Source: a phage
Reading direction: 5' to 3' (one strand)
Length of the DNA stretch: 45,074 nt
NCBI GenBank assembly: GCA_028473545.1
Contig: GCA_028473545.1_4546.1
The notes under the pieces: model-generated
What the model saw: the letters and a program-made list of their open reading frames with translations, nothing else
Database searches by the model: none
Told to the model about the DNA's origin: nothing
Part shown: piece by piece, positions 20,943-32,529 of the stretch
Layout: each line of letters starts with the position of its first letter
Position numbering within the stretch: position 1 is the first letter of the stretch
Position numbers and translations under genes: made by a program

Positions 20943-23585
20943 GCAGATCAAGCAGCAGGCATCACGCTAAAGGCGGATGTTGCACAAATCAGAACGGCGA
21001 ATACGGTGCTGGACTCATTCGCGCAGAAGTCCGAAAACACCGAAAACAAGGTCAAGAAATTAAACGACACCCTCGGCAACTCAAAAAAGGTGACGAGTGA
21101 CGCCGCGGGCGGAATGGGGAAGCTGGCAACTGAATCGCAGCGGGCCGCCGATGGCATGACGAAGCAGGAGCGACTTGCCAACCGCTTAGGCATGTCGACC
21201 AAAAACCTGGGCTTCGCATCGCGTAACGCCGCATTTCAGTTACAAGATATCGCGGTCACGCTCGAGATGGGTATGCCGGTGCACCGCGTCATGATTCAGC
21301 AGCTACCGCAGTTAACCGGGGCATTCGGTGGACTGGGTAACACGCTGCGTTATGTTGCTGGCTTTCTCGGTCCGGTAGGGATCGGCCTTGCTGCGGTAAC
21401 GGCAACGCTAGGCGTAGGCGTGGCTATTACGTCCCGCGCAGAAAACCAGGTAGCGGCGCTGAATAAGACGCTGGCGCTATCTGGTAACATCTCGGGCCTC
21501 ACCGCTAACCAGATCCTGGTGCTGTCGGAGAACGCCGAACGAATGGGCGGTTCATTCAGCAAGACGCGTGACACAATTCAGGCGCTGGCGGCGGCAGGTG
21601 TGAAAGCGGGTGCTGACTTCGGCGCGCTGGCGAAAGTAGTGAACGACTTCGCGAAGGTGTCTAATCAGCCGATCGCCGACGTGGTGGAGTCCATCTCCAA
21701 ATTGTCCAACGACCCGGTGGGCGGCTTGCGCGCACTGGCGGACAAGTATCACGTCGTTACCGAGGCGCAGATCCAGCAGGTGCAGTCACTGGTTACGACG
21801 GGTCGCGAAACCGAAGCGGTGGCGCTGGCGAACAAAACAGCCGCGGCGTCGTTCACCAGCATGACCAACGAGATCAAGTCCAACATGGGTACGCTTGAGC
21901 GGTCGATGAACGTCGTCACATCGGCAGCTAAATCTATGTGGGATGCCATCCTGGATGTGGGCCGCGCGCAGTCATCGAATGAGTCCGAGATGAAAGCGCG
22001 TGAGTCATTGCAGCGCATGACCACGGCTTACTATGCTGAGATGAAAGCGGTAAACGCTGCCGGTGGGGTAATGACCGACGCGCAGAAAGCACGTATTAAC
22101 ATGCTTTATAGCGAACTGGTCGCACAGGAAAAAGTAGTAGCGTCGCTCACCCTGCGTAACCGTGCCGAGCGCGACAACGCCAGCGCTGCGGACAAATCAG
22201 CGAAGGCGAACGAGGAGGCCAACCGCACCGCCCGTGACCGCGCCGCGTTCGAGAAGGAATTTGCCACCAACGCGAAGAAGCGCGCCGACGAGATCGCCCG
22301 CCTCAATTTACTGAATAAGCGCGGTGTGATTAACGAGAAAGAACTAGCCGAGGCGGTGAAGCAGGTCAACGAGCGCTACAAAGACCCCGCACCGAAAAAG
22401 GCGGCGGCAATTCGCGTCGATGCCGGTGTTAAAATGCTGGAGGTCGCGCGGAGCGAACTGGCACAGCTTAAGGAGTCCGGCAAGCAGATCGAAGCCAATG
22501 CCACAACGCAGACCCGCACGCAGCGCGCACAGGCCGCGTTGAATAAGCTGGTCGCGGATAATGAGCAAATGGTCGCAGCAAGCAAGGAACGCACACTAAC
22601 GGCAGCAGAAAAGCAGCAAATGGCAGAGTTCGAGGCGGTTAAAGCGGTACGCGAGCAGATCGTCGAAGAAGCCAAATTGCTGGACGCGAAAGAGAAGCAG
22701 ATCAAGGCACACGCCCAGGTCGAGGCATTCATCAAGAACCAGAACGCCGAGCTACGGGCCACCGCTGCGGGCTATGCGCTTTCCACTCGCGAAGCGGCTA
22801 ACCTGCGCGAAGAATTACAGCTAATTGACCGCCTTCAGCGTGTCGGCGCTAACGATACTGATATTGACCGGGCGGTGTCTAAGCTGCGCGAAGTGCAGGA
22901 AGCACAGACCGGTGCTAACGCTTCGTTGTGGGATGGCTTTAGCCGCGGGCTTAAGGATAGCGTGGATGAAATGGGGAACGGCTACACGCAGATGACGTCA
23001 CTCACAAAATTCACGTTCGGCGCTATGCAGGACACGATGAATACGTTTTTCGAGACGGGCAAGCTGAACGCAAAGGATATGGTTAAGTCCATCCTGAGCG
23101 AATTAATCAAGCTGGCTACCTCGCAGGCGTTCAAATCCATCGTTAGCGCTTTCGGCGGTGACGGCGGCAAAAACGGATTGTTCGGCGCTATCTTCTCGGG
23201 CCTCACTAAGAACGCAGACGGCGGAGCGTACGCAGGAGGCAATCTCGCGGCCTATTCTGGTCAAGTGGTAAGCCAGCCCACCTTTTTCAGTTATGGCGTT
23301 CAGGCGTTCGCTAAGGGCGCTGGGTTGATGGGTGAGGCTGGACCCGAGGCTATCATGCCACTGAAGCGCGGGCCGGATGGGAAACTGGGCGTTGCCGCTG
23401 CCGGTGCTGGTGGGGGTGGGATGATTGTAACAACCAACGTGAACATGGGTACCGGTAAGACGGACACCAGTGTGAGCGGACCGGACCCACGCACCGCGCA
23501 GGCGTTCGGAAAGCAAATCACCGAGTCGGTCAAGGCCGAGATCGTGAAAGCGACGAAACCGGGTGGAGTACTTTACAAACGATGA
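20940..23585 (+). CDS. Tape measure protein
   Basis: Start at MADQAAG with aagggga RBS; 881 aa; long helical protein; Gly-rich C-terminal region; position before the M/L/K/I/J-like genes. Confidence 0.8.
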   Translation: MADQAAGITLKADVAQIRTANTVLDSFAQKSENTENKVKKLNDTLGNSKKVTSDAAGGMGKLATESQRAADGMTKQERLANRLGMSTKNLGFASRNAAFQLQDIAVTLEMGMPVHRVMIQQLPQLTGAFGGLGNTLRYVAGFLGPVGIGLAAVTATLGVGVAITSRAENQVAALNKTLALSGNISGLTANQILVLSENAERMGGSFSKTRDTIQALAAAGVKAGADFGALAKVVNDFAKVSNQPIADVVESISKLSNDPVGGLRALADKYHVVTEAQIQQVQSLVTTGRETEAVALANKTAAASFTSMTNEIKSNMGTLERSMNVVTSAAKSMWDAILDVGRAQSSNESEMKARESLQRMTTAYYAEMKAVNAAGGVMTDAQKARINMLYSELVAQEKVVASLTLRNRAERDNASAADKSAKANEEANRTARDRAAFEKEFATNAKKRADEIARLNLLNKRGVINEKELAEAVKQVNERYKDPAPKKAAAIRVDAGVKMLEVARSELAQLKESGKQIEANATTQTRTQRAQAALNKLVADNEQMVAASKERTLTAAEKQQMAEFEAVKAVREQIVEEAKLLDAKEKQIKAHAQVEAFIKNQNAELRATAAGYALSTREAANLREELQLIDRLQRVGANDTDIDRAVSKLREVQEAQTGANASLWDGFSRGLKDSVDEMGNGYTQMTSLTKFTFGAMQDTMNTFFETGKLNAKDMVKSILSELIKLATSQAFKSIVSAFGGDGGKNGLFGAIFSGLTKNADGGAYAGGNLAAYSGQVVSQPTFFSYGVQAFAKGAGLMGEAGPEAIMPLKRGPDGKLGVAAAGAGGGGMIVTTNVNMGTGKTDTSVSGPDPRTAQAFGKQITESVKAEIVKATKPGGVLYKR

Positions 23586-23589
23586 TAAA

Positions 23590-23618
23590 ATGGCCCTCAC
23601 ATACAACGTGGGGGCTTT
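23590..23618 (+). terminator. Hairpin plus T5 between tape measure and the next gene (possible attenuator)
   Basis: ggccctcac..gtgggggc stem followed by ttttt; the ATG at 23622 follows immediately. Confidence 0.3.
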
Positions 23619-23621
23619 TTC

Positions 23622-24221
23622 ATGGCACAAGGTACAATCACACTAACGAACGGAAGTAAGACCGTCACGGGCGCGGGGACGGCGTTCCTGAGCGAGATCG
23701 GGAAGGTCCGCGTATTTGCCCGCATCGACGGCAACGACTACACCGGCAAAATTGCAGCATTCAACTCTGATACAGTCATCACCCTGGTGGATAACTGGGC
23801 CGGTCTGACAAAAGCCGGTGCAGCCTACGAGCTAATCGAAGCGCACGACCCGCGATCAAACGAATGGCCCTATTACTGGCACATGCAATTGCAAGGTGGC
23901 GGCGACGTGCAGTTGGCTTTCCGGTCGGAGGAATTGCAATTCGGCAATGGCTACGGGCAGAACATCGCGGATGGCCCGAACGCCGAGACGAAACAGTTCC
24001 CCGTGCAATTCATCGGACTGACTACTGACAAGTGGTGCGACCCTAAACTGGTGTACAACTTCCTTCGCGGGCATTTCGTCAAGCCGTTTGTAGTCACCGC
24101 GCCTGATGGTGAAACAGGTTTATTCGTGGTCGAGCGTTCGAGCTTGTCGTACACTGACAACGGACACTACACGGCAACGGTATCCGCCACCCTTAAGACT
24201 GCTATTGGATTCGTAAGATGA
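23622..24221 (+). CDS. Distal/minor tail protein (lambda gpM-like C-terminal half with extra N-terminal domain)
   Basis: 199 aa; the C-terminal half contains FGNGYGQ, which resembles FGDGYSQ in lambda gpM as recalled; N-terminal MAQGTITLTNGSKTVTGAGTAF resembles the tail fiber N-terminus. Confidence 0.5.
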   Translation: MAQGTITLTNGSKTVTGAGTAFLSEIGKVRVFARIDGNDYTGKIAAFNSDTVITLVDNWAGLTKAGAAYELIEAHDPRSNEWPYYWHMQLQGGGDVQLAFRSEELQFGNGYGQNIADGPNAETKQFPVQFIGLTTDKWCDPKLVYNFLRGHFVKPFVVTAPDGETGLFVVERSSLSYTDNGHYTATVSATLKTAIGFVR

Positions 24222-25006
24222 ATAAACTATATCGTGAGGCGACGCGCTTTGACCCATCGGGCCGCGTTCGCCTGATTCACATTGATGCGCAGGACGTGGA
24301 GCCGGGCGACGGCGCGATCGGCGCGGGCCACCATTATTTCCATTACTGCTTTATTCCGCACACTGCCGACGATATTGCTGCCGCTGGCGGCGACGAGGAC
24401 AAGCTAAAGCCAAAATCTATCTTCTTCGGCGGGCAGGAGTTCGAATTCTGGCCCTTCGATTTGTCTGGCCTCAACTTCTCCACATCAACGGCAGCAGAAC
24501 CGCAGCTAACTATCGTCGATATTGGCGGGATTATCACCCGGCTATCCCTGAATCACGACCAGCTACTGGGCGCGAAGGTTGAAATCATAGACACGTTTGC
24601 GAAGTTCCTGGACAACGGGCCTGATCCAGACCCAACGCAAAAACGTGTACAGGAGTTTTACATCGACTCACAGGTCGGTCGCAATCCGGGCAAACAAATC
24701 ACCTTCGCATTATCCTCGCCCGCGGATATGGAGGGGCAAGTAGTCCCGCGCCGCCAAATCATGAATATGTGCGAATGGGCGCTCAACGGGAAGTATGCCA
24801 GCGGGGACGGGTGCACCTGGAACCTTGCACAGCCTGGCATCAAGTATTATGACGAGCGAGGCAATGAAGTCATCGCGATGGATATGGACCGATGTGGCGG
24901 CTGTTTGTCCGACTGTTATCTTCGTTTCGGACAAGGGCTTGCAGATCCGAAAGCGGCGGTGCTGGACTATGGCGGCTTTCCGGGGTCCAGATTAATTAAG
25001 GGGTAG
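24218..25006 (+). CDS. Minor tail protein (lambda gpL-like)
   Basis: 262 aa; C-terminal Cys cluster CGGCLSDCYLRFG; position. Confidence 0.65.
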   Translation: MNKLYREATRFDPSGRVRLIHIDAQDVEPGDGAIGAGHHYFHYCFIPHTADDIAAAGGDEDKLKPKSIFFGGQEFEFWPFDLSGLNFSTSTAAEPQLTIVDIGGIITRLSLNHDQLLGAKVEIIDTFAKFLDNGPDPDPTQKRVQEFYIDSQVGRNPGKQITFALSSPADMEGQVVPRRQIMNMCEWALNGKYASGDGCTWNLAQPGIKYYDERGNEVIAMDMDRCGGCLSDCYLRFGQGLADPKAAVLDYGGFPGSRLIKG

Positions 25007-25008
25007 TC

Positions 25009-25749
25009 ATGTTAACGAAGAAGGTTAAGAGCGATATCGCCGCGCACGTTGCGGCATGTCTGCCAGAAGAAGCCTGCGGCCTGGTCGTCATGGTGGGCCG
25101 CAAACAAGTATTTATCCCGTGCCTGAACGTATTCGAAGACCCGACCGGCGCGCGATCGCGTAAGGACGCGTTTACAATTAGTGATATGGCATGGATGGAC
25201 GCCGAGGATATGGGCGACGTCGTGCGCGTAGTCCACTCACATCCAGGCCAGCGCGAGCTAACCCCGTCATTGGGCGACGTTAGCGGATGCAACGGCAGCG
25301 GCATAGTGTGGGCCATTACCAATGAGTATGGCGACTTTATCGAGATCGACCCGGAAGACCCGCCGCTGGTAGGTCGCCGATTTGTTCTCGGAATTACGGA
25401 TTGCTATGGCCTCGTCATGGACTGGCACAAAAAGCAGGGCGTGATTCTTCCTGACTTCCGCGTGCCGTATAACTGGTGGGAAATGGGCGAAAGCCTGTAC
25501 ATGGATAACTGGTATGATGCGGGGTTCCGGGAGTGCGAGGAGAATACACTGGGGGCGATGGTCATCATGCAGATTAGCGCGCCAGTGCCTAACCATGCTG
25601 GGATCTTCCTTCCGGGCAACCAACTACTGCACCATATCTACGGCAGCTTGTCGAGCGTGGTCCCCTTCCGGGCAGGATTTTTCCGCGACAATGTGGTTAA
25701 ATGGGTACGTCATAAAGACTTACCAGGGGATATTACAGAATGGCAATGA
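25009..25749 (+). CDS. Tail assembly protein (lambda gpK-like; MPN/JAB plus NlpC/P60 domains)
   Basis: 246 aa; JAB motif VVHSHPGQRELTPSLGDV; Cys-containing ITDCYGLVMDWH. Confidence 0.7.
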   Translation: MLTKKVKSDIAAHVAACLPEEACGLVVMVGRKQVFIPCLNVFEDPTGARSRKDAFTISDMAWMDAEDMGDVVRVVHSHPGQRELTPSLGDVSGCNGSGIVWAITNEYGDFIEIDPEDPPLVGRRFVLGITDCYGLVMDWHKKQGVILPDFRVPYNWWEMGESLYMDNWYDAGFRECEENTLGAMVIMQISAPVPNHAGIFLPGNQLLHHIYGSLSSVVPFRAGFFRDNVVKWVRHKDLPGDITEWQ

Positions 25750-26357
25750 CCACATTTAAATTGTACGGCGTCTTAGGACGTCGTTTTGGTAAAGTGCATA
25801 AGCTGGAATGTTTCACACCTGGCGAGGGTATCACCGGCCTATGCGTGAAGTTACCAGGCTTACAGGACTTTCTAATGTCGGCCCACCTGGGAAACATGAT
25901 GTTTAAGGTGCGCAAGGGTAATCACACAATGACCGGCTACGACGAGTTAGGGGAGTTCCACGGCGACCGCGTAGTTACCATCGCGCCGGTTATGACGGGT
26001 GCTAAAAGCGGACTGGGCCAATTGCTGGCTGGCGTAGCTATCGTGGTGGCGTCGTTCTACACCGGCGGGCTTGCCGCTGCCGCTTTCGGTGCTTCCGCGG
26101 CGACCGCTGCCGCTATCGGAACGGCGACGTTTTCGTTCGGTATGTCGCTTGCGCTTGGCGGTGCTATGCAACTGCTGTCACCGCAACCGAAAGGATTGCA
26201 GACACGGCAGGACGTGGATAACAAGGCGTCGTATGCGTTCGGCGGGCCGGTAAACACTACCGCGCAAGGTACAGCACTTGGTGTATTATGGGGCGAGCGT
26301 GAGATCGGCGGCGCTATTATTTCAGCCGGAATTGTAACCGAGGATTTGAACGAATGA
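25740..26357 (+). CDS. Tail assembly protein (lambda gpI-like)
   Basis: 205 aa; Gly/Ala-rich hydrophobic segment; position between the K-like and J-like genes. Confidence 0.6.
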   Translation: MAMTTFKLYGVLGRRFGKVHKLECFTPGEGITGLCVKLPGLQDFLMSAHLGNMMFKVRKGNHTMTGYDELGEFHGDRVVTIAPVMTGAKSGLGQLLAGVAIVVASFYTGGLAAAAFGASAATAAAIGTATFSFGMSLALGGAMQLLSPQPKGLQTRQDVDNKASYAFGGPVNTTAQGTALGVLWGEREIGGAIISAGIVTEDLNE

Positions 26358-29300
26358 CGATTGTATACGACGTCACGGGTCATAAAGGCGGCGGTGGCAA
26401 ACAGCACACCCCACAGGAGACGCCTGATAGCCTGCATTCGCTGGCTAAAATCCGCATCTTGCTCGCACTGGGCGAGGGCGAATTTGAAGGCATTCCCGAC
26501 CCTAACGAATTACGGCAGCGTGTATACCTGGACGGCACACCGATCCAGAACGCCGACCTGTCGGATAACTTCCCCGGCGCGCGTGTGGAGTTCCGCCCCG
26601 GCACGCAGCACCAGGATGTGATTCACGGTTTTTCAGCGGTGGAAAGCGAGCAAACAGTAGGCGTAAAACTGGAACAGGGCCAGCCGTGGGTCCGCCAGAT
26701 TTCGGATACCAGTCTGGATGCGGTGCGCATTCGAATCGGTATTCCGGCCCTGTACACCAACGAAGATAATGGCGACCTGGTGGGCGGGCGCATCGACTAT
26801 AAAATTGTTGTGTATACAGACAATGCTGATCCGCGGGAGTTTACATTCGCTGCCGTTGGTAAAACAATGTCGCTGTATGAGCGCGATCACCGCATCGAAT
26901 TACCGCCGAACGTGAATACCGGCTGGCGCGTGGAGGTGCACCGCACAACGGCAGACTCCACATCGGCAAAAGTGGTCAACGATATTCAGGTACAATCCAT
27001 TACTGAGATTATCGACGCCCGCCTGCGATACCCGCTAACCGCGCTGTTGTTCGTGGAGTTCGATGCTAAGGCGTTCCAGAACATCCCGCGTGTGTCCATC
27101 AAGTGCAAAGGCCGCAAAGTGCTGGTGCCGAACAACTACGACCCGATTAATCATACCTATTCTGGTGACTGGGACGGCACATTTAAACGCGCCTGGACGG
27201 ATAACCCTGCGTGGCACTGGTACGATATTTGTATTACTGAGCGCTTCGGCCTCGGTCGTCGTGTCAAGCCACAAATGCTAAACCGTTACGCACTCTACCA
27301 GATTTCGCAGCGCTGCGATCAGATGGTCAGTGACGGCAACGGCGGTCAGGAAATCCGATTTAAGAATGATATGTACATTCAGTCGCAGACCGACGCCTGG
27401 ACCGTGCTGAAGGATTTAGCGGCTATCTTTGCGGGCATGACCTGGTGGGGCAACCAGATGTTGAATATCGTCAGTGACCAGCCTGTCGCAGCGGTATCGC
27501 ATACTATCACCAACGCCTCGGTCATTGATGGTCGATTCGACTACGCATCGGGAAGCCAGAAAACTCGGTATTCCACGTTCTCGGTAGCCTACGGCAACCC
27601 GAAGAACCACTATGATGACGCCATCGCAACGGGTCAACGTGTCGAACTGGTGCGCCGCCATAAGATTAACCGCCTTGATATCACGGCGATCGGCTGTACG
27701 CGAGAATCTGAAGCGCAACGCCGCGGGCACTGGGCGCTAATCTCCAACCAGCTTGACCAGCAAGTCAGCTTTAAGGTTGGCATGGAGGGGTTATTCTTTA
27801 TTCCGGGGAGCGTAGTCGCGATCGCAGATACTAACATTTCTGGCGGCTTCGAGACACGCGGCGGACGCCTGTTGTCAGATCCAGGCACGCGCACCGTGCT
27901 GAACACGGACAGCGAAATCACGTTCCGCCCTGGTGATAAATTCCTGGTGCGCACCGATAGCGGTAATGTGGAGACTCGCGAGATTGCCAGCGTCAACGGC
28001 AACCAGGTCACGCTAAAAACCGCACTGGACTCCGACCCGATTCCCGATCAGCCGTTTTGCGTTGATGGCGATGATATCCAGTTGCAGAAGTTCCGCATCA
28101 CAGACCTGGAATATGACGACGCTACCAGCACTTTTTCGGTGCGCGGGATTGAGTACAACGATAGCAAATATGATGCCGTTGATAATGGCGCGCGTCTTGA
28201 TCCGGGTATCTTCACTCAAGTGCCGGACGGCGTGATGAAGGGGCCAGAATCCGTTACTATCACCCCGTCGCAGATTTCATCGCAAGGCCAGCTAATCACC
28301 AACGTAGATATTGTTTTTCCGCCGGTGAAGGATGCCGTTGTGTACGAAATCCAGTGGCGACGTACCAGCTTGCAGAATCTGGAAGTACAGTGGGGCAACG
28401 ACTGGGTTAACATCCCCCGCACGGCGTCGAACGGCGCGCACATCCCGAACGTGTTTTCTGGTAACTACCAGGCACGCGTCCGCGCTATCGGTATGGGCGA
28501 GATTTCATCCCCGTGGGTGTCATCCGAAATCACGCCGGTCGAGGGCCGTCTTGGCGGGCTAAACGCGCCAATCATTACCAACGCGATTTCGGGCCTTCAT
28601 CAAATTTTGTGGAAGTGGAATCACAACAACGCCGCGACGGATATTTCGTATACCGAGCTTGAAGTGCGCAAGCTGGGTGAGACTGAATGGAAATTCTTGA
28701 CCAACGTCCCATATCCGGGGTCGGACTATGCGCAAACGTCGCTGGAATTCGGGATCTACCAGCAGTTGCGCGCACGCGTAGCGGATAAAATCGGCAACCT
28801 GTCGGACTGGTCAGACCCGTTTGACGGTCAGGTGAGTGACAAAGTTGACGAGTACATGCAGGGGCTTGATGACGAGTTCTTGACTTCCGAGGACGGTAAA
28901 CACTTCCAGGAAGCAATCGACACCATTCCACAAGGCATTTACGAGGCCATGCTCACCGACGCGCAGCAGTTGTTTAACGCCCGCTCCGAGTATCAAGGGA
29001 TTTATGCGGAAATCAAGGTGGCGTACAACGTTGCGGTGGACGCAAACGAGGCCGTAGCGCAACTGGAAACGCTGATCGGCACGCGCCTTGACGATGCGGA
29101 AGCGTCAATCCACACGTTGCAGACTGCGCAAAGCACGCACGAACAAGCGTTCGCCCAGTATCAACAAACTGTTGCCGCTAAGTTCGGTCAGCAGTCCGCA
29201 GCGATCGAGCAGAAGATGACGTCTTCGTTTAACCATGCTGGCGGTAGCGCCACCTACAGCCTTAAAGCTGGCGTGACGTATAACGGGACTTACTATGATG

Positions 29301-29704
29301 CCGGTATGCAGCTTTCCGTTGTGGCGGAAGGTGGCGCGGTTAAATCTCGCATCGCGTTCAAGGCGGACCAGTTCTACATCATGCACCCGTCGAATGGGTC
29401 GCTTTCGTCCGCGTTTATCGTCGACGGCGGTCAGGTGTACATTGACACGGCGCGCATCAAGAATGCGTCCATCAACTTCGCACAGATCACGGACACGCTG
29501 CAATCCAATAACTGGAATCCGGGTAACAGCGGCTGGCGAATCGCGAAGGATGGCGGGGCGGAGTTCAACAACGTAACGGTACGCGGCAACTTGTTCGCGA
29601 CTACGGGTAATTTCGGATTCTCCGGCGGGTCCGTTACGATCGACGCAACGGGCGTCAACGTGCCATTACCTGGAGGGGGAAGGGTTAAAGTCGGGACGTG
29701 GTAA
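26354..29704 (+). CDS. Tail tip / central fiber protein (lambda gpJ-like)
   Basis: 1116 aa; ATGA overlap with the I-like gene; size and position. Confidence 0.8.
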   Translation: MTIVYDVTGHKGGGGKQHTPQETPDSLHSLAKIRILLALGEGEFEGIPDPNELRQRVYLDGTPIQNADLSDNFPGARVEFRPGTQHQDVIHGFSAVESEQTVGVKLEQGQPWVRQISDTSLDAVRIRIGIPALYTNEDNGDLVGGRIDYKIVVYTDNADPREFTFAAVGKTMSLYERDHRIELPPNVNTGWRVEVHRTTADSTSAKVVNDIQVQSITEIIDARLRYPLTALLFVEFDAKAFQNIPRVSIKCKGRKVLVPNNYDPINHTYSGDWDGTFKRAWTDNPAWHWYDICITERFGLGRRVKPQMLNRYALYQISQRCDQMVSDGNGGQEIRFKNDMYIQSQTDAWTVLKDLAAIFAGMTWWGNQMLNIVSDQPVAAVSHTITNASVIDGRFDYASGSQKTRYSTFSVAYGNPKNHYDDAIATGQRVELVRRHKINRLDITAIGCTRESEAQRRGHWALISNQLDQQVSFKVGMEGLFFIPGSVVAIADTNISGGFETRGGRLLSDPGTRTVLNTDSEITFRPGDKFLVRTDSGNVETREIASVNGNQVTLKTALDSDPIPDQPFCVDGDDIQLQKFRITDLEYDDATSTFSVRGIEYNDSKYDAVDNGARLDPGIFTQVPDGVMKGPESVTITPSQISSQGQLITNVDIVFPPVKDAVVYEIQWRRTSLQNLEVQWGNDWVNIPRTASNGAHIPNVFSGNYQARVRAIGMGEISSPWVSSEITPVEGRLGGLNAPIITNAISGLHQILWKWNHNNAATDISYTELEVRKLGETEWKFLTNVPYPGSDYAQTSLEFGIYQQLRARVADKIGNLSDWSDPFDGQVSDKVDEYMQGLDDEFLTSEDGKHFQEAIDTIPQGIYEAMLTDAQQLFNARSEYQGIYAEIKVAYNVAVDANEAVAQLETLIGTRLDDAEASIHTLQTAQSTHEQAFAQYQQTVAAKFGQQSAAIEQKMTSSFNHAGGSATYSLKAGVTYNGTYYDAGMQLSVVAEGGAVKSRIAFKADQFYIMHPSNGSLSSAFIVDGGQVYIDTARIKNASINFAQITDTLQSNNWNPGNSGWRIAKDGGAEFNNVTVRGNLFATTGNFGFSGGSVTIDATGVNVPLPGGGRVKVGTW

Positions 29705-29708
29705 ATGA

Positions 29709-29735
29709 GAAGGGGCCATCCGGCCCCTTTTTTAA
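29709..29735. terminator. Bidirectional rho-independent terminator
   Basis: ggggcc-atcc-ggcccc hairpin flanked by tttttt (plus) and T-rich sequence on the minus side; at a convergent gene junction; near-identical copy at 32533-32560. Confidence 0.5.
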
Positions 29736-30706
29736 TACATGTTAGGTATGACGAGTAACGGGGTTGGGACGGCTATGTTGCGGTTAGGCATCTGGAATTG
29801 CTGCCGTGAGTAGTTACCGATTACGCGATTACGCGCCGCACTAACCACGTTGCCCGCCATGCGTATCCCGTTCATTCGAACGTGGTTGTAGCCGCTGTTG
29901 TTCTCAATGAGCGCGCCGGTATATGAAAGCTGTACGAGGCTATTACCGATATTCTGACCGCCGGTGCCGATATTAATTACCGAATTGAGCACAAACGGCT
30001 TGTTAACGGTCGAGAACGTGACCTGCCCCTGGTTGTTCGTCATGGTGATACCAGTCCCCGGTGATGGAGGCGTATTGTTGAAGATAACCAGATCCAAGTC
30101 CACTTCGGCCCCGACGTCATCAATCCCGCCATAAGACGAATTGCGGACGATGATACTACTACCATCGAAGCCTACCGATACGTTGCCATTATCCCAGCGC
30201 GCGAACGGGATACCGCCCACAGGCAAAGGCATACTACCGTTCACGTGCACGCGCTGCGCGTAGCGGCAGGTCATTAACCGGGACACGTTGGAAATCGCGG
30301 TGAAGTCTGTCGAGTTCGCCACCAGTAAGCCCGCATTGCGTGACCCCACCGGCAGCACTTCCATAATTATACCAGCCCATTGCGGGAGGCCGCTGTATGC
30401 GTTATGCGCGTCCGCGCCTCGAAGGATAATTCCACTATCCCCGTTGCGCTGTACCGACGTCACGTAGAACGGGTCGGGGAGAACCAGCGTCTGGTCGAAC
30501 ACCTCAAGCACTTCTACCGGGCGCGTGAGTGCAACGACAAGGTCCGACCCTGGTGTTAGCGGGGTATTAATGGTCAGCGTCTTGTCGGACTGGCAGCGCT
30601 GATCAAACGTAGTGCAGTATGACGGAGCGCGCAAACCGGCAGTTATCTCCATAATCGGTCGTCCGTCGTTGTAGTCGATGAGTATTCCAGCGCCCATTAT
30701 TACCAC
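29732..30706 (-). CDS. Putative receptor-binding / tail accessory protein (GTG start)
   Basis: 324-aa antisense ORF between the J-like and tail-fiber genes; Gly/Asn/Ser/Thr-rich; start codon abuts the upstream lipoprotein stop. Confidence 0.45.
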   Translation of the reverse strand: MVIMGAGILIDYNDGRPIMEITAGLRAPSYCTTFDQRCQSDKTLTINTPLTPGSDLVVALTRPVEVLEVFDQTLVLPDPFYVTSVQRNGDSGIILRGADAHNAYSGLPQWAGIIMEVLPVGSRNAGLLVANSTDFTAISNVSRLMTCRYAQRVHVNGSMPLPVGGIPFARWDNGNVSVGFDGSSIIVRNSSYGGIDDVGAEVDLDLVIFNNTPPSPGTGITMTNNQGQVTFSTVNKPFVLNSVINIGTGGQNIGNSLVQLSYTGALIENNSGYNHVRMNGIRMAGNVVSAARNRVIGNYSRQQFQMPNRNIAVPTPLLVIPNMY

Positions 30707-30921
30707 TCCCGTGATTTAACAGATACAGTGCCTGAGAAATTGCCGTCGCTATCGGCAGATAGGCCCGTGAAGCGCATGTCCACGGCCCCGGCAGGGACTT
30801 TTTGCCCGTCAACGTAGCGTAACATGCAGCTACCGTAAGCAACCGTAATGCAATCGCCGTTGTTGCGTTCTACAGCACAACCGGACAAAAGGACCGCACA
30901 AATCATAATTAAAGTTTTCAT
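30700..30921 (-). CDS. Small lipoprotein (candidate Llp/Cor-like superinfection exclusion protein)
   Basis: Start at MKTLIMICAVLLSGC with aggag RBS; lipobox LSGC; 73 aa; adjacent to the putative receptor-binding gene. Confidence 0.5.
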   Translation of the reverse strand: MKTLIMICAVLLSGCAVERNNGDCITVAYGSCMLRYVDGQKVPAGAVDMRFTGLSADSDGNFSGTVSVKSREW

Positions 30922-30975
30922 GTTATCATCTCCTATATTTGGTTGAGTTTTAGTATTGCACCGCTCAATCAAGAA

Positions 30976-30985
30976 TGCAACCAAT
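30976..30985 (+). promoter_or_regulatory. TGCAACCAAT box upstream of the tail fiber gene
   Basis: TGCAACCAATTTTAAGAGG directly precedes the ATG at 31003; lies in the divergent region between lipoprotein and fiber genes. Confidence 0.3.
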
Positions 30986-31002: not shown

Positions 31003-32529
31003 ATGGCAGCGGGTACTATCTTATTAACCAATAACAGCCGGTCAGTAACGGGGACCGGTACGACGTTTTCGGCGTTCAAAGCCGGTGATTTCCTTTCTGT
31101 CGTAGTGGGGCAAGTCCCCTACACTATCGCGATTGAATCTATCGAAAGCAACACCGGGCTTACTTTGGTGCTGCCGTTTGACGGCCCAACGGCATCCGGC
31201 ATCGCATGGGATGGCGTTGCGCGCGATACCATGTCGCTGGCAACGATGGGCGTAACAGTCCAGGCACAGAAAGCACTGCGTATGCTTATTGCGGACGAGA
31301 ACAACTGGCGTGCAATCTTCGGCGACGCTGAAGAAATCACAGTTACGTTACCGAACGGCACAGTGATGCAGGGTATGTCGTGGGGCTACCTGTCGCAGCT
31401 AATGAAGCAGATCGACCCGGTGGAAATGCTCAACCTGCAACAACAAGCCGCCGCATCTGAGGTCGCAGCGAAAGGATACCGCGACGAGGCCGAAGGCTTC
31501 AAGAACGATACTAATACCATCAAGACGCAAACCAACCAGATTAAGACTGATACGCAGGCGATCCACGACGCCACCAATACGATCAAGACGCAAACCGACC
31601 AGATTAAGACCGATACGCAGGCCATCAAGGACCAGACCAACCAGATTAAGACTGACACTGGCGTTATTCGAGATCAGGCCAACACGGCGAAGACTGACGC
31701 ACAAGCGGCCCGAGATGCAGCGCAGGGATACCGCGACGAAGCCGAAGGCTTCAAAAACTCAATCGACCCCACTAAGTTCATGCAGAAGTCGCAGAACCTG
31801 GCGGACGTTGCCGACAAGTACACCGCGCGCAACATTCTTGGGGTGGGCGATGACAGTTACGTTAAACACGCAACATTACGCCTGAACGGTGGCGAATCAT
31901 TAACATTCAATGAAGTGGAGGCTAACGGCTTAATTCTATCAAACGCCTCGATGGGAATCGACAATTGGGTAGGCTTCACCATGCATAAATGGTACGCCGA
32001 CTGGACACGCGCAGGAATTGTGCGTGCGGGTGACTCCCACTTGTCAGACTACCGCATCCACGTGTGGAAGAATGGGGATACTGAGGCGCTATTCCGCTTC
32101 CTGCCGGACGGGCGTCTGATTCAGGGTAACGGCGGCAACCCATCGTCGGCGGAGTTTCAGAAAGCACCGCTATCAGACCGGGACGTGAAGAAAGAAATCC
32201 AATACACGGACGGCGCGGAAAGTTACAACCGAGTACGGCAATGGCTACCAGCAATGTTTAAGTATAAGGAGTCGGACGTACAGCGTTACGGCCTTATCGC
32301 GCAGGACCTGGCCATGATTGACCCGGAATATGTGCACTTGCTGCCAGGACACGGAATCTACGAGGACGTTGTTGTTGGCGTGGACGAGGAAGGGAACGAG
32401 ATTGTCGAGCAAAAGGAGATCGGATACACCGACGATGTGCTGTCGCTTGACAGTAACGTGCTGTTGATGGATCTATGCGCCGCCTTCGTTCACCTGTTGC
32501 AGAAAGTAGAAAAGCTGGAAGGTAAGTAA
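31003..32529 (+). CDS. Tail fiber protein with C-terminal S74-type intramolecular chaperone domain
   Basis: 508 aa; internal repeats TNTIKTQTNQIKTDTQAI; C-terminal segment GLIAQDLAMIDPEYVH resembles the endosialidase-chaperone domain. Confidence 0.65.
   Translation: MAAGTILLTNNSRSVTGTGTTFSAFKAGDFLSVVVGQVPYTIAIESIESNTGLTLVLPFDGPTASGIAWDGVARDTMSLATMGVTVQAQKALRMLIADENNWRAIFGDAEEITVTLPNGTVMQGMSWGYLSQLMKQIDPVEMLNLQQQAAASEVAAKGYRDEAEGFKNDTNTIKTQTNQIKTDTQAIHDATNTIKTQTDQIKTDTQAIKDQTNQIKTDTGVIRDQANTAKTDAQAARDAAQGYRDEAEGFKNSIDPTKFMQKSQNLADVADKYTARNILGVGDDSYVKHATLRLNGGESLTFNEVEANGLILSNASMGIDNWVGFTMHKWYADWTRAGIVRAGDSHLSDYRIHVWKNGDTEALFRFLPDGRLIQGNGGNPSSAEFQKAPLSDRDVKKEIQYTDGAESYNRVRQWLPAMFKYKESDVQRYGLIAQDLAMIDPEYVHLLPGHGIYEDVVVGVDEEGNEIVEQKEIGYTDDVLSLDSNVLLMDLCAAFVHLLQKVEKLEGK

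What the first reader, a model, noticed from the sequence alone, without database searches (positions are those of the whole stretch)
23622..23870. gpM-like distal tail protein carries an N-terminal domain resembling the tail-fiber N-terminus
The N-terminus of the 23622 product (MAQGTITLTNGSKTVTGAGTAF..) and that of the tail fiber at 31003 (MAAGTILLTNNSRSVTGTGTTF..) share the pattern M-A-x-G-T-I-x-L-T-N-x-S-x-x-V-T-G-x-G-T-x-F and further conserved positions over about 70 aa. Only the C-terminal half of the 23622 protein resembles lambda gpM. The shared domain suggests a common attachment partner or a history of domain exchange between tail-tip proteins.
Basis: seen in the sequence. Interest (0 to 1): 0.4.

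Follow-up and report, generated by a model that had tools for sequence, protein, structure and literature searches.

The report
Tail-ring protein carrying a borrowed fibre-anchor domain
The ring protein at the end of this coliphage's tail tube has picked up a copy of the small barrel domain that side fibres normally use as their anchor; this is a real and tidy case of domain capture, but a modest variant of known decorated tail-tip proteins.

Summary
The window is a Dhillonvirus. ORF 23622-24221 (199 aa) is its distal tail protein (DTP). Residues ~82-199 are the lambda gpM / T1 gp37 tube-fold core. Residues 1-72 are a six-stranded beta-barrel homologous to the N-terminus of the phage's own lateral fibre (31003-32529), and the similarity extends well beyond the first 20 residues. 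The same module begins hundreds of siphophage fibres and the F-pyocin side fibre, where cryo-EM shows it docking on the coiled-coil shaft of the central fibre. Syntenic sister phages have a plain 123-aa DTP with the same start codon, so the module was inserted in frame after Met-Ala. A near-identical DTP is already in the PDB (23gd, gp20). The DTP copy lacks the fibre stem and the fibre-specific GDF and Trp positions. It evolves about four times faster than its own core but under purifying selection. It shows no gene conversion or co-variation with the fibre copy, and unfused relatives keep the same fibres. The most likely role is an outward decoration domain like the OB domain of T5 pb9, not a shared attachment partner. 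Domain exchange is supported. The function is inferred, not shown.

The parts
23592..23621 (+). Terminator-like hairpin (9-bp stem, 7-nt loop, T-run) between the tape-measure stop codon and the DTP start codon. It is conserved in fused and unfused relatives and fixes ATG 23622 as the start.
   Evidence: PDB 23gd_B also starts at the equivalent Met.
23622..23837 (+). DTP residues 1-72: captured fibre-type N-terminal beta-barrel module, six strands.
   Evidence: BLASTP E=8e-08 to the fibre. Profile match to F2-pyocin side fibre residues 5-75, E=9.3e-08. AF2 pLDDT 85.7. TM 0.83-0.85 to predicted N-termini of Dhillonvirus fibres. Median dN/dS 0.12.
23838..23864 (+). DTP residues 73-81 (IEAHDPRSN): linker between the module and the tube-fold core. 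Unfused homologues begin just after this point.
   Evidence: Alignments; DNA alignment.
23865..24221 (+). DTP residues 82-199 plus stop codon: lambda gpM / T1 gp37-type tail-tube-fold core of the distal tail protein.
   Evidence: Pfam PF05939 at residues 86-187. T1 gp37 9l9p_H E=3.7e-12 and 23gd_B E=2.9e-129. Unfused 122-125-aa homologues 55-65% identical. Median dN/dS 0.03.
24218..25006 (+). gpL-type hub protein, the next gene in the tail-tip module (context).
   Evidence: Pfam Phage_tail_L; PDB 23gd_C 'Hub protein gp21' E=1.7e-181.
26354..29704 (+). J-like central fibre / tip attachment protein.
   Evidence: Pfam FNIII-A_GpJ, Phage-tail_3 and Phage_Tail_Tip. PDB 23gd_D, F2-pyocin central fibre 25vf_A (E=4.6e-220) and T1 gp33.
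28835..29233 (+). Alpha-helical coiled-coil shaft of J (about residues 828-960). By homology with F-pyocins this is the likely docking site of the lateral fibre's N-module plus stem (inferred).
   Evidence: Alignment to the shafts of 23gd_D, T1 gp33 and F2-pyocin J. N15 gp21 shares the shaft. F-pyocin structures show side fibres docking there.
31003..31218 (+). Lateral fibre residues 1-72: the resident copy of the N-terminal module (anchor domain).
   Evidence: This is the only part of the fibre conserved among Dhillonviruses.
31219..31410 (+). Lateral fibre residues 73-136: conserved stem segment (...QAQKALRML..NWRAIF..ITVTLPNG..GMSWGY...). It follows the module in all fibres and is absent from the DTP.
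   Evidence: role of the stem in F2 pyocin.
31411..32529 (+). Rest of the lateral fibre: coiled-coil repeats, receptor-binding region and C-terminal Peptidase_S74 intramolecular chaperone domain (residues 391-444).
   Evidence: Pfam PF13884; phrog_1980; fibre architecture of the related phage Bas85.

Best explanation
ORF 23622-24221 is the distal tail protein (DTP, the hexameric ring between the tail tube and the conical tip) of a Dhillonvirus. At the base of this genus an ancestral 123-aa gpM-type DTP acquired, in frame right after its Met-Ala start, the ~72-residue globular beta-barrel that siphophage side fibres and tailspikes carry at their extreme N-terminus. This part is shown. Only the barrel was taken, not the stem that follows it in fibres. 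In the virion, six copies most likely sit on short linkers on the outside of the DTP ring. There they would act as an exposed decoration or adhesion domain, as proposed for the OB domain of T5 pb9 and the Ig-like domains of tube proteins, giving weak, multivalent contact with cell-surface glycans or modest stabilisation of the tip. They would not be the socket for the fibre. This part is inferred. The phage's own fibre most likely docks through its module plus stem on the coiled-coil shaft of the J-like central fibre, as its homologues do in F-type pyocins. This is inferred by homology.
For: Identity: Pfam gpM family at residues 86-187; gene order TMP-DTP-gpL-gpK-gpI-J; a 95%-identical solved chain, 23gd_B 'Distal tail protein gp20', in an entry that also holds the hub and J-like proteins. 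Module homology: (F2-pyocin side fibre E=9.3e-08). Capture event: unfused syntenic relatives with the same start codon and intergenic hairpin. Among the 160 best of 4,161 module-bearing cluster representatives, only Dhillonvirus DTPs combine the module with a gpM core. All ~158 Dhillonvirus records have the fusion. Maintained but fast-evolving: median dN/dS 0.12 against 0.03 for the core; protein divergence up to 42% against 12.5%. Independence from the fibre: identity between the DTP and fibre copies is 32.8% within a genome and 33.0% between genomes; Spearman rho of pairwise divergences is 0.08. Pandora71 and bov25_1D have a strongly diverged DTP module with a standard fibre module. In a sliding-window scan the DTP module tracks the genome backbone while the whole fibre gene is uncoupled. 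No stem, and loss of the fibre-conserved D30, F31, G37 and W70. Precedent: the T5 pb9 tube-fold domain is decorated with an OB domain, binds no protein other than tube components, and is proposed to bind surface carbohydrate. The F2-pyocin authors found their side-fibre N-domain structurally similar to that pb9 domain. The module also occurs as tandem arrays in giant cellular proteins with PKD and CBM5/12 domains, which fits a generic extracellular bead or adhesion domain. Fibre docking on the J shaft: three F-pyocin cryo-EM studies; the window's J is homologous to the pyocin central fibre and has a helical shaft; N15, which has an N-module fibre and a plain DTP, has the same shaft.
Against: No experiment or structure available to me shows where residues 1-72 sit or what they touch. 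I could not read the coordinates of 23gd, and no paper for it was found. The glycan-binding role of T5 pb9 is itself only proposed. My predicted module resembles the pb9 OB domain only weakly (TM 0.41, E=0.44). Absence of co-variation does not exclude an interface formed by the residues conserved in both copies. The homologous module does oligomerise side by side into rings in F-pyocins, so a mixed DTP-fibre ring remains physically plausible. The docking site of Dhillonvirus fibres has not been observed.
Confidence: 0.5

Rival explanations
1. Built-in collar. The six DTP-borne modules form, or nucleate, a mixed ring with the homologous N-modules of the lateral fibres, so that the DTP itself is the fibre socket. 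This would be the covalent counterpart of the T5 p132 collar or of the Ur-lambda Stf ring around gpM.
For: The homologous module makes lateral module-module contacts and forms a pseudo-sixfold ring in F-pyocins, leaving one protomer per trimer free. In other siphophages fibres attach at or around the DTP. Eighteen core positions are conserved in both copies. The fibre N-module is the only conserved part of the fibre.
Against: Syntenic sister phages and N15 carry N-module fibres with a plain DTP. There is no co-variation: Pandora71 and bov25_1D have a 33%-diverged DTP module with an unchanged fibre module. The DTP copy lacks the stem and the fibre-specific GDF and Trp positions. No fibre chain is present in PDB 23gd or elsewhere in the PDB, although fibres are often lost or flexible. 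Solved homologues dock on the central-fibre shaft, not on the DTP.
Confidence: 0.25
2. Structural brace. The modules pack against the last tail-tube ring, its Ig-like domains or neighbouring DTP subunits, and mainly stabilise the tube-tip junction or aid tip assembly, with no role in host contact.
For: The N-termini of tube-fold proteins take part in contacts between rings. The module is under purifying selection and follows the backbone phylogeny. The module's divergence correlates with that of the adjacent DTP core and the TMP C-terminus, though physical linkage explains this equally well.
Against: The module is dispensable in sister lineages with an otherwise near-identical tail module. It evolves four times faster than the core, which is unusual for a tightly packed interface. 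No distant co-varying region was detected.
Confidence: 0.15
3. Recent recombination or ongoing gene conversion between the fibre 5' end and the DTP gene keeps the two copies similar, making this a mosaic junction rather than an old, independently evolving domain.
For: Both genes start with Met-Ala-x-Gly-Thr. Fibre loci in these phages are recombination hot spots.
Against: The two copies are only 25-41% identical. Identity within a genome (32.8%) equals identity between genomes (33.0%), and the fusion is fixed across ~158 genomes with its own conserved signature IDGNDY...AYELIEAHD.
Confidence: 0.03

Closest known systems
PDB 23gd chain B, 'Distal tail protein gp20' (tail-tip complex with hub gp21 and J-like gp24 of a closely related phage)
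   Same: 199 aa, aligned end to end at E=2.9e-129 and about 95% identical, including the N-terminal module. The partner proteins are also near-identical.
   Different: It is the same protein family, so the fused architecture is already known to the depositors. I found no paper describing it, and the entry contains no chain matching the fibre.
Bacteriophage T5 distal tail protein pb9 (PDB 4JMQ)
   Same: A DTP whose tail-tube-fold ring domain carries one extra small beta-barrel (OB) decoration domain per subunit. It binds no protein other than tube components and is proposed to contact surface carbohydrate.
   Different: In pb9 the extra domain is described as a C-terminal extension, whereas here it is N-terminal. 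There is no detectable sequence similarity, and the fold match to my model is weak (TM 0.41). The T5 domain is not known to be related to T5's own fibre.
F-type pyocin side fibre N-terminal attachment domain (PyoF13 / PA0643 / PA0646; PDB 25ve)
   Same: Homologous module: profile E=9.3e-08 over pyocin residues 5-75. It is described as a small OB-like barrel.
   Different: In pyocins and phage fibres the module is followed by a stem and belongs to a trimer that docks on the coiled-coil shaft of the central fibre. The DTP copy has no stem, sits on a hexameric ring protein, and has lost the GDF and Trp positions.
Plain gpM-type DTPs: lambda gpM, T1 gp37 (PDB 9l9p_H), F2-pyocin DTP, N15 gp17
   Same: The core (residues ~82-199) is the same tube-fold ring protein in the same gene position.
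   Different: These proteins are 109-125 aa and have no extra domain.
Fibre-anchoring rings around the DTP region: T5 p132 collar and the Ur-lambda Stf N-terminal Ig-like dodecamer
   Same: Small beta domains arranged as a ring at the level of the distal tube or DTP.
   Different: Those are separate proteins, or the fibre's own domains, with Ig-like folds and a demonstrated anchoring role. Here the domain is covalently part of the DTP, has a different fold, and anchoring is not supported by the comparative data.

Membership tests
lambda gpM / Phage_min_tail distal tail protein (DTP) | Sequence membership in Pfam PF05939 above the gathering threshold | tested here: met
   44.1 bits against a cut-off of 39, residues 86-187; T1 gp37 E=3.7e-12.
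lambda gpM / Phage_min_tail distal tail protein (DTP) | Gene lies immediately downstream of the tape measure gene and upstream of gpL, gpK, gpI and J homologues | tested here: met
   ORF order and Pfam assignments; annotation of the 99.9%-identical phage.
lambda gpM / Phage_min_tail distal tail protein (DTP) | Forms the hexameric ring between the last tube ring and the trimeric hub in the virion | not testable with these tools
   Supported indirectly. The near-identical 23gd_B is deposited as 'Distal tail protein' with two chains per entry alongside single hub and J chains, as expected for a C3 asymmetric unit.
Siphophage fibre / tailspike N-terminal anchor module (PyoF13-type OB-like barrel) | Sequence homology to the solved F-pyocin side-fibre N-domain and to phage fibre N-termini | tested here: met
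   Profile E=9.3e-08 to 25ve_A residues 5-75; BLASTP E=8e-08 to the phage's own fibre; a fibre-only HMM scores the DTP module at 69.9 bits.
Siphophage fibre / tailspike N-terminal anchor module (PyoF13-type OB-like barrel) | Small all-beta barrel fold matching fibre N-termini | tested here: met
   AF2 pLDDT 85.7 with six strands; Foldseek TM 0.83-0.85 and rmsd 1.5-1.7 A to predicted N-termini of the mckay and rolling fibres, and TM about 0.7-0.8 to many others.
Siphophage fibre / tailspike N-terminal anchor module (PyoF13-type OB-like barrel) | Followed by the conserved stem segment and a trimeric fibre shaft | tested here: not met
   The DTP module is followed by a 9-aa linker and the gpM core. 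All 131 proteins with a single N-terminal copy, other than the DTPs, are fibre-like, and the sequences inspected continue into the stem. The DTP therefore contains the module but is not a fibre.
Siphophage fibre / tailspike N-terminal anchor module (PyoF13-type OB-like barrel) | Docks on the coiled-coil shaft of the central fibre | not testable with these tools
   Shown only for F-pyocins. For the DTP copy it is geometrically unlikely and the fibre-specific positions are lost.
Decorated DTPs of the T5 pb9 type | Tube-fold ring domain plus one extra globular beta domain per subunit | tested here: met
   Two-domain architecture.
Decorated DTPs of the T5 pb9 type | The extra domain is structurally an OB fold like pb9 domain B | tested here: inconclusive
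Decorated DTPs of the T5 pb9 type | The extra domain binds cell-surface carbohydrate and no virion protein | not testable with these tools
   For T5, carbohydrate binding is only proposed and absence of protein partners was observed. Nothing is known for Dhillonvirus.

The most novel reading that the evidence does not exclude
The DTP-borne modules and the homologous N-modules of the lateral fibres co-assemble into a mixed ring. The tube's own distal ring protein would then mimic a fibre anchor and serve as a covalently built-in collar. That would be a side-fibre attachment mode distinct from the T5 collar, the Ur-lambda Stf ring and the F-pyocin shaft docking, and it could let Dhillonviruses mount fibres at two sites.
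Probability: 0.2. Interest if true: 0.6.

Novelty: new variant of a known kind. Interest (0 to 1): 0.35.

Why it matters
Decorated distal tail proteins are known: T5 pb9 and the 'evolved Dit' proteins of Gram-positive phages. Here the origin of the decoration can be read directly from sequence. It is the N-terminal anchor barrel of a side fibre, inserted cleanly after the start codon, and sister phages preserve the state before insertion. This gives a natural paired comparison, fused against unfused DTP with otherwise near-identical tails, for testing what such decorations do. It also adds sequence-level support for the structural resemblance, noted in the F2-pyocin work, between fibre anchor domains and the T5 DTP decoration. 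In addition, it defines a large fibre-anchor family (at least 4,161 clusters at 50% identity) that the Pfam copy searched here does not cover, which is useful for annotating fibres and for fibre-swap engineering in BASEL-type coliphages. The biological payoff is moderate, because the protein's structure is already deposited and its function is probably accessory.

Tried and rejected
(1) AF2 prediction of the full 199-aa DTP with an 11-sequence alignment failed (mean pLDDT 46), and that model was not used. Only the module alone, with a 35-sequence alignment, gave a usable model.
(2) The Foldseek PDB library stops at April 2026 and lacks 23gd and 25ve. It returned only weak generic beta-barrel matches: ATPase N-domains, RimM, tailspike N-termini and pb9 at TM 0.41.
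(3) Literature searches for the paper behind 23gd found nothing. The one paper using the phrase 'distal tail protein gp20' describes Aeromonas phage Avs-1, whose gp20 has a helical extension and is a different protein.
(4) Gene conversion or concerted evolution between the two copies was rejected, because identity within a genome equals identity between genomes.
(5) A mirror-tree scan over 20 kb in 18 genomes found no distant co-varying partner, only linkage decay and the genome-backbone signal.
(6) I suspected that the 415-aa gpL of L003 and L004 might carry the module in place of the DTP. It does not: the module HMM does not hit it, it lacks the motif, and Pfam finds nothing in the ~150-aa insertion.
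(7) Pfam has no family for the module or the fibre stem.
(8) A weak profile match to the MpAFP adhesin repeat (4p99, E=0.003, half a domain) was judged uninformative.
(9) There is no in-frame internal start codon near the module-core junction that could also produce an undecorated DTP (read from the sequence).

Full report
WHAT IS THERE. The window is a Dhillonvirus genome. Positions 23000-26400 are 99.9% identical to Escherichia phage vB_EcoS-CHD5UKE2, and 158 phage records match this stretch. The ORF at 23622-24221 (199 aa) follows the tape measure gene and precedes homologues of lambda gpL, gpK (JAB/NlpC), gpI and J. Pfam places the gpM family (Phage_min_tail) at residues 86-187. PHROG phrog_9922 ('minor tail protein', 199 positions) matches end to end at E=1e-138. 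A solved structure exists for a ~95% identical protein: PDB 23gd chain B, 'Distal tail protein gp20'. The same entry holds near-identical copies of the hub protein (gp21) and the J-like tip protein (gp24). The protein is therefore the distal tail protein (DTP) of this phage.

BLASTP aligns residues 1-70 of the DTP with residues 1-70 of the 508-aa lateral fibre (31003-32529) without gaps: 39% identity, E=8e-08. PHROG profiles cross-match in both directions. An HMM built from fibre sequences only, with the first 22 columns removed, still scores DTP residues 23-78 at 33.3 bits; the best of 200 shuffles scored 3.0, giving z=10.5. A module HMM finds exactly two copies in the window, two in every fused Dhillonvirus locus, and one (fibre only) in unfused relatives and in N15.

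WHAT THE MODULE IS. A profile of the module finds 4,161 cluster representatives at E<=0.001 among 1.84 billion proteins. Of the best 160, 131 carry it once, starting at residue 1, in proteins with a median length of 405 aa. These are fibre-like, and the sequences I inspected continue into a conserved stem segment. Another 22 are giant cellular proteins with up to 13 tandem copies alongside PKD, CBM5/12 or peptidase C25 domains. Only the Dhillonvirus DTPs join the module to a gpM core. In annotated phages, tblastn finds it in about 158 Dhillonvirus DTPs and otherwise in tail fibres: N15 gp25, HK225, ES18 gp33, Oslo, ENT39118, an Aeromonas phage and a Pseudomonas 'particle-associated lyase'. A 37-sequence profile matches residues 5-75 of the F2-pyocin side fibre (PDB 25ve) at E=9.3e-08. 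AlphaFold2 on a 35-sequence alignment gives a confident six-stranded beta-barrel (pLDDT 85.7). That model superposes on the predicted N-termini of many siphophage fibres and tailspikes at TM 0.7-0.85. Pfam has no family for it. Three independent cryo-EM studies of F-type pyocins show what the homologous fibre domain does. Residues ~2-76 plus the following stem attach the trimeric side fibre to the coiled-coil shaft of the central fibre. Two protomers of each of three trimers form a pseudo-sixfold ring, and basic residues face an acidic patch on the shaft. [quoted passage not shown]

HOW THE FUSION AROSE. The nearest non-Dhillonvirus relatives in metagenomes (L002, L003, L004) have the same gene order from capsid to fibre. 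Their DTP is a plain 123-aa protein, 55-65% identical to residues ~80-199 of the window's protein. The DNA alignment shows the same tape-measure stop, the same hairpin and the same ATG-GCA start. In Dhillonviruses, ~76 codons follow Met-Ala before the shared WPYYW motif. Plain DTPs are the rule: lambda gpM, T1 gp37 (117 aa), N15 gp17 and the F-pyocin DTP. The fused proteins form a tight group at 84% identity or more. A single in-frame gain at the base of the genus is therefore the simplest reading. The donor is not recent: the DTP copy is only 25-41% identical to any fibre copy examined.

HOW THE TWO COPIES EVOLVE. Across 19 genomes, identity between the DTP copy and the fibre copy is 32.8% within a genome and 33.0% between genomes, which rules out gene conversion. 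The DTP module diverges faster (mean 14.5%, maximum 42%) than the fibre module (8.6%, maximum 26%) and the gpM core (3.8%, maximum 12.5%). All three are under purifying selection, with median dN/dS of 0.12, 0.07 and 0.03. Pairwise divergences of the two copies are uncorrelated (rho 0.08). Pandora71 and bov25_1D combine a 33%-diverged DTP module with a standard fibre module. A sliding-window mirror-tree scan over 20 kb shows that the DTP module follows the vertically inherited backbone (rho 0.4-0.5). The receptor-binding-protein locus and the entire fibre gene, including the fibre's N-module (rho 0.07-0.22), are exchanged independently, and no distant co-varying region appears. Eighteen core positions are shared by both copies, but the fibre-conserved D30, F31 (the GDF motif), G37 and W70 are replaced in the DTP copy.

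RIVALS. The main rival is that the DTP modules form a mixed ring with fibre modules and act as a built-in collar. It remains possible because the module is known to form rings. It is weakened by the unfused relatives that keep the same fibres, by the lack of co-variation, and by the missing stem. A purely structural brace is also possible. Chance similarity and recent gene conversion are excluded.

COMPARISON AND NOVELTY. The fused architecture is already catalogued (phrog_9922) and solved (23gd), and decorated DTPs are a known kind. I did not find the following described in the searchable literature: the sequence-level demonstration that the decoration is a captured fibre anchor, the clean insertion point, the natural unfused counterparts, and the evolutionary decoupling from the fibre. 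I rate it a new variant of a known kind, with modest interest.

LIMITS. I could not read the 23gd coordinates or run multimer predictions. The first full-length AF2 model failed. All functional statements about the DTP module are inference from comparative data and from homologues.

Noticed in passing
window 29732-30706 (-): The DUF6453 protein downstream of J is near-identical (E=3.4e-183) to PDB 9rpt_C, deposited as 'Tail fiber protein' (327 aa; also in 9rpw and 9rqi). That chain probably corresponds to the Oekolampad receptor-binding protein solved in complex with LptDE, but the preprint gives no PDB codes, so this link is an inference. If it holds, this phage would use LptD as its terminal receptor. 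The small ORF just upstream on the same strand (30700-30984) corresponds to the gene annotated 'lipoprotein' in relatives and may be a superinfection-exclusion protein of the Rtp45 type.
   Followed up: partly
window 29120-29130 (J shaft) and 31440-31450 (fibre), compared with L001: Relative to the otherwise 99.8%- and 97.8%-identical proteins of vB_EcoS-CHD5UKE2, the window's J lacks a 32-aa segment of the coiled-coil shaft, lying between direct repeats VAAK/QFG(E/Q)Q. Its fibre lacks one 21-aa coiled-coil repeat (TNTIKTQTNQIKTDTQAIHDA). These are length changes in the two proteins proposed to contact each other. They could be real repeat-number variation or assembly collapse.
   Followed up: partly
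L003 10362-11609 and L004 6133-7380: In two sister lineages with an unfused DTP, the gpL-type hub protein is 415 aa instead of 262 because of a ~150-aa insertion after residue ~57. The insertion has no Pfam match and is not the fibre module. A different decoration therefore seems to occupy the neighbouring tail-tip protein.
   Followed up: partly
window 23592-23621 (+): A terminator-like hairpin (9 bp, 6 G-C pairs) with a T-run ends 5 nt before the DTP start codon, so the only purine-rich stretch that could serve as a ribosome-binding site lies in the 3' arm of the stem. It is conserved in fused and unfused relatives and is annotated 'terminator' in phage WF5505. This may mean attenuation or translational coupling between the tape measure and tip genes.
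   Followed up: no
proteins P0015-P0019, P0031, P0035-P0042, P0072 and others (not in the window): The fibre-anchor module also occurs as tandem arrays of 4-13 copies in giant (1,000-2,900 aa) proteins that carry PKD, CBM5/12, NHL, SdrD-B or peptidase C25 domains. Summed weak hits to Pfam Phage_attach (the lambda gpFII family) fall on the same repeats. The module is therefore a general extracellular bead domain and is not restricted to phages.
   Followed up: partly
window 32173-32334 (+): The lateral fibre ends in a Peptidase_S74 intramolecular chaperone domain (residues 391-444), which predicts autoproteolytic release of the C-terminus after trimerisation, as in T5-type fibre tips.
   Followed up: no
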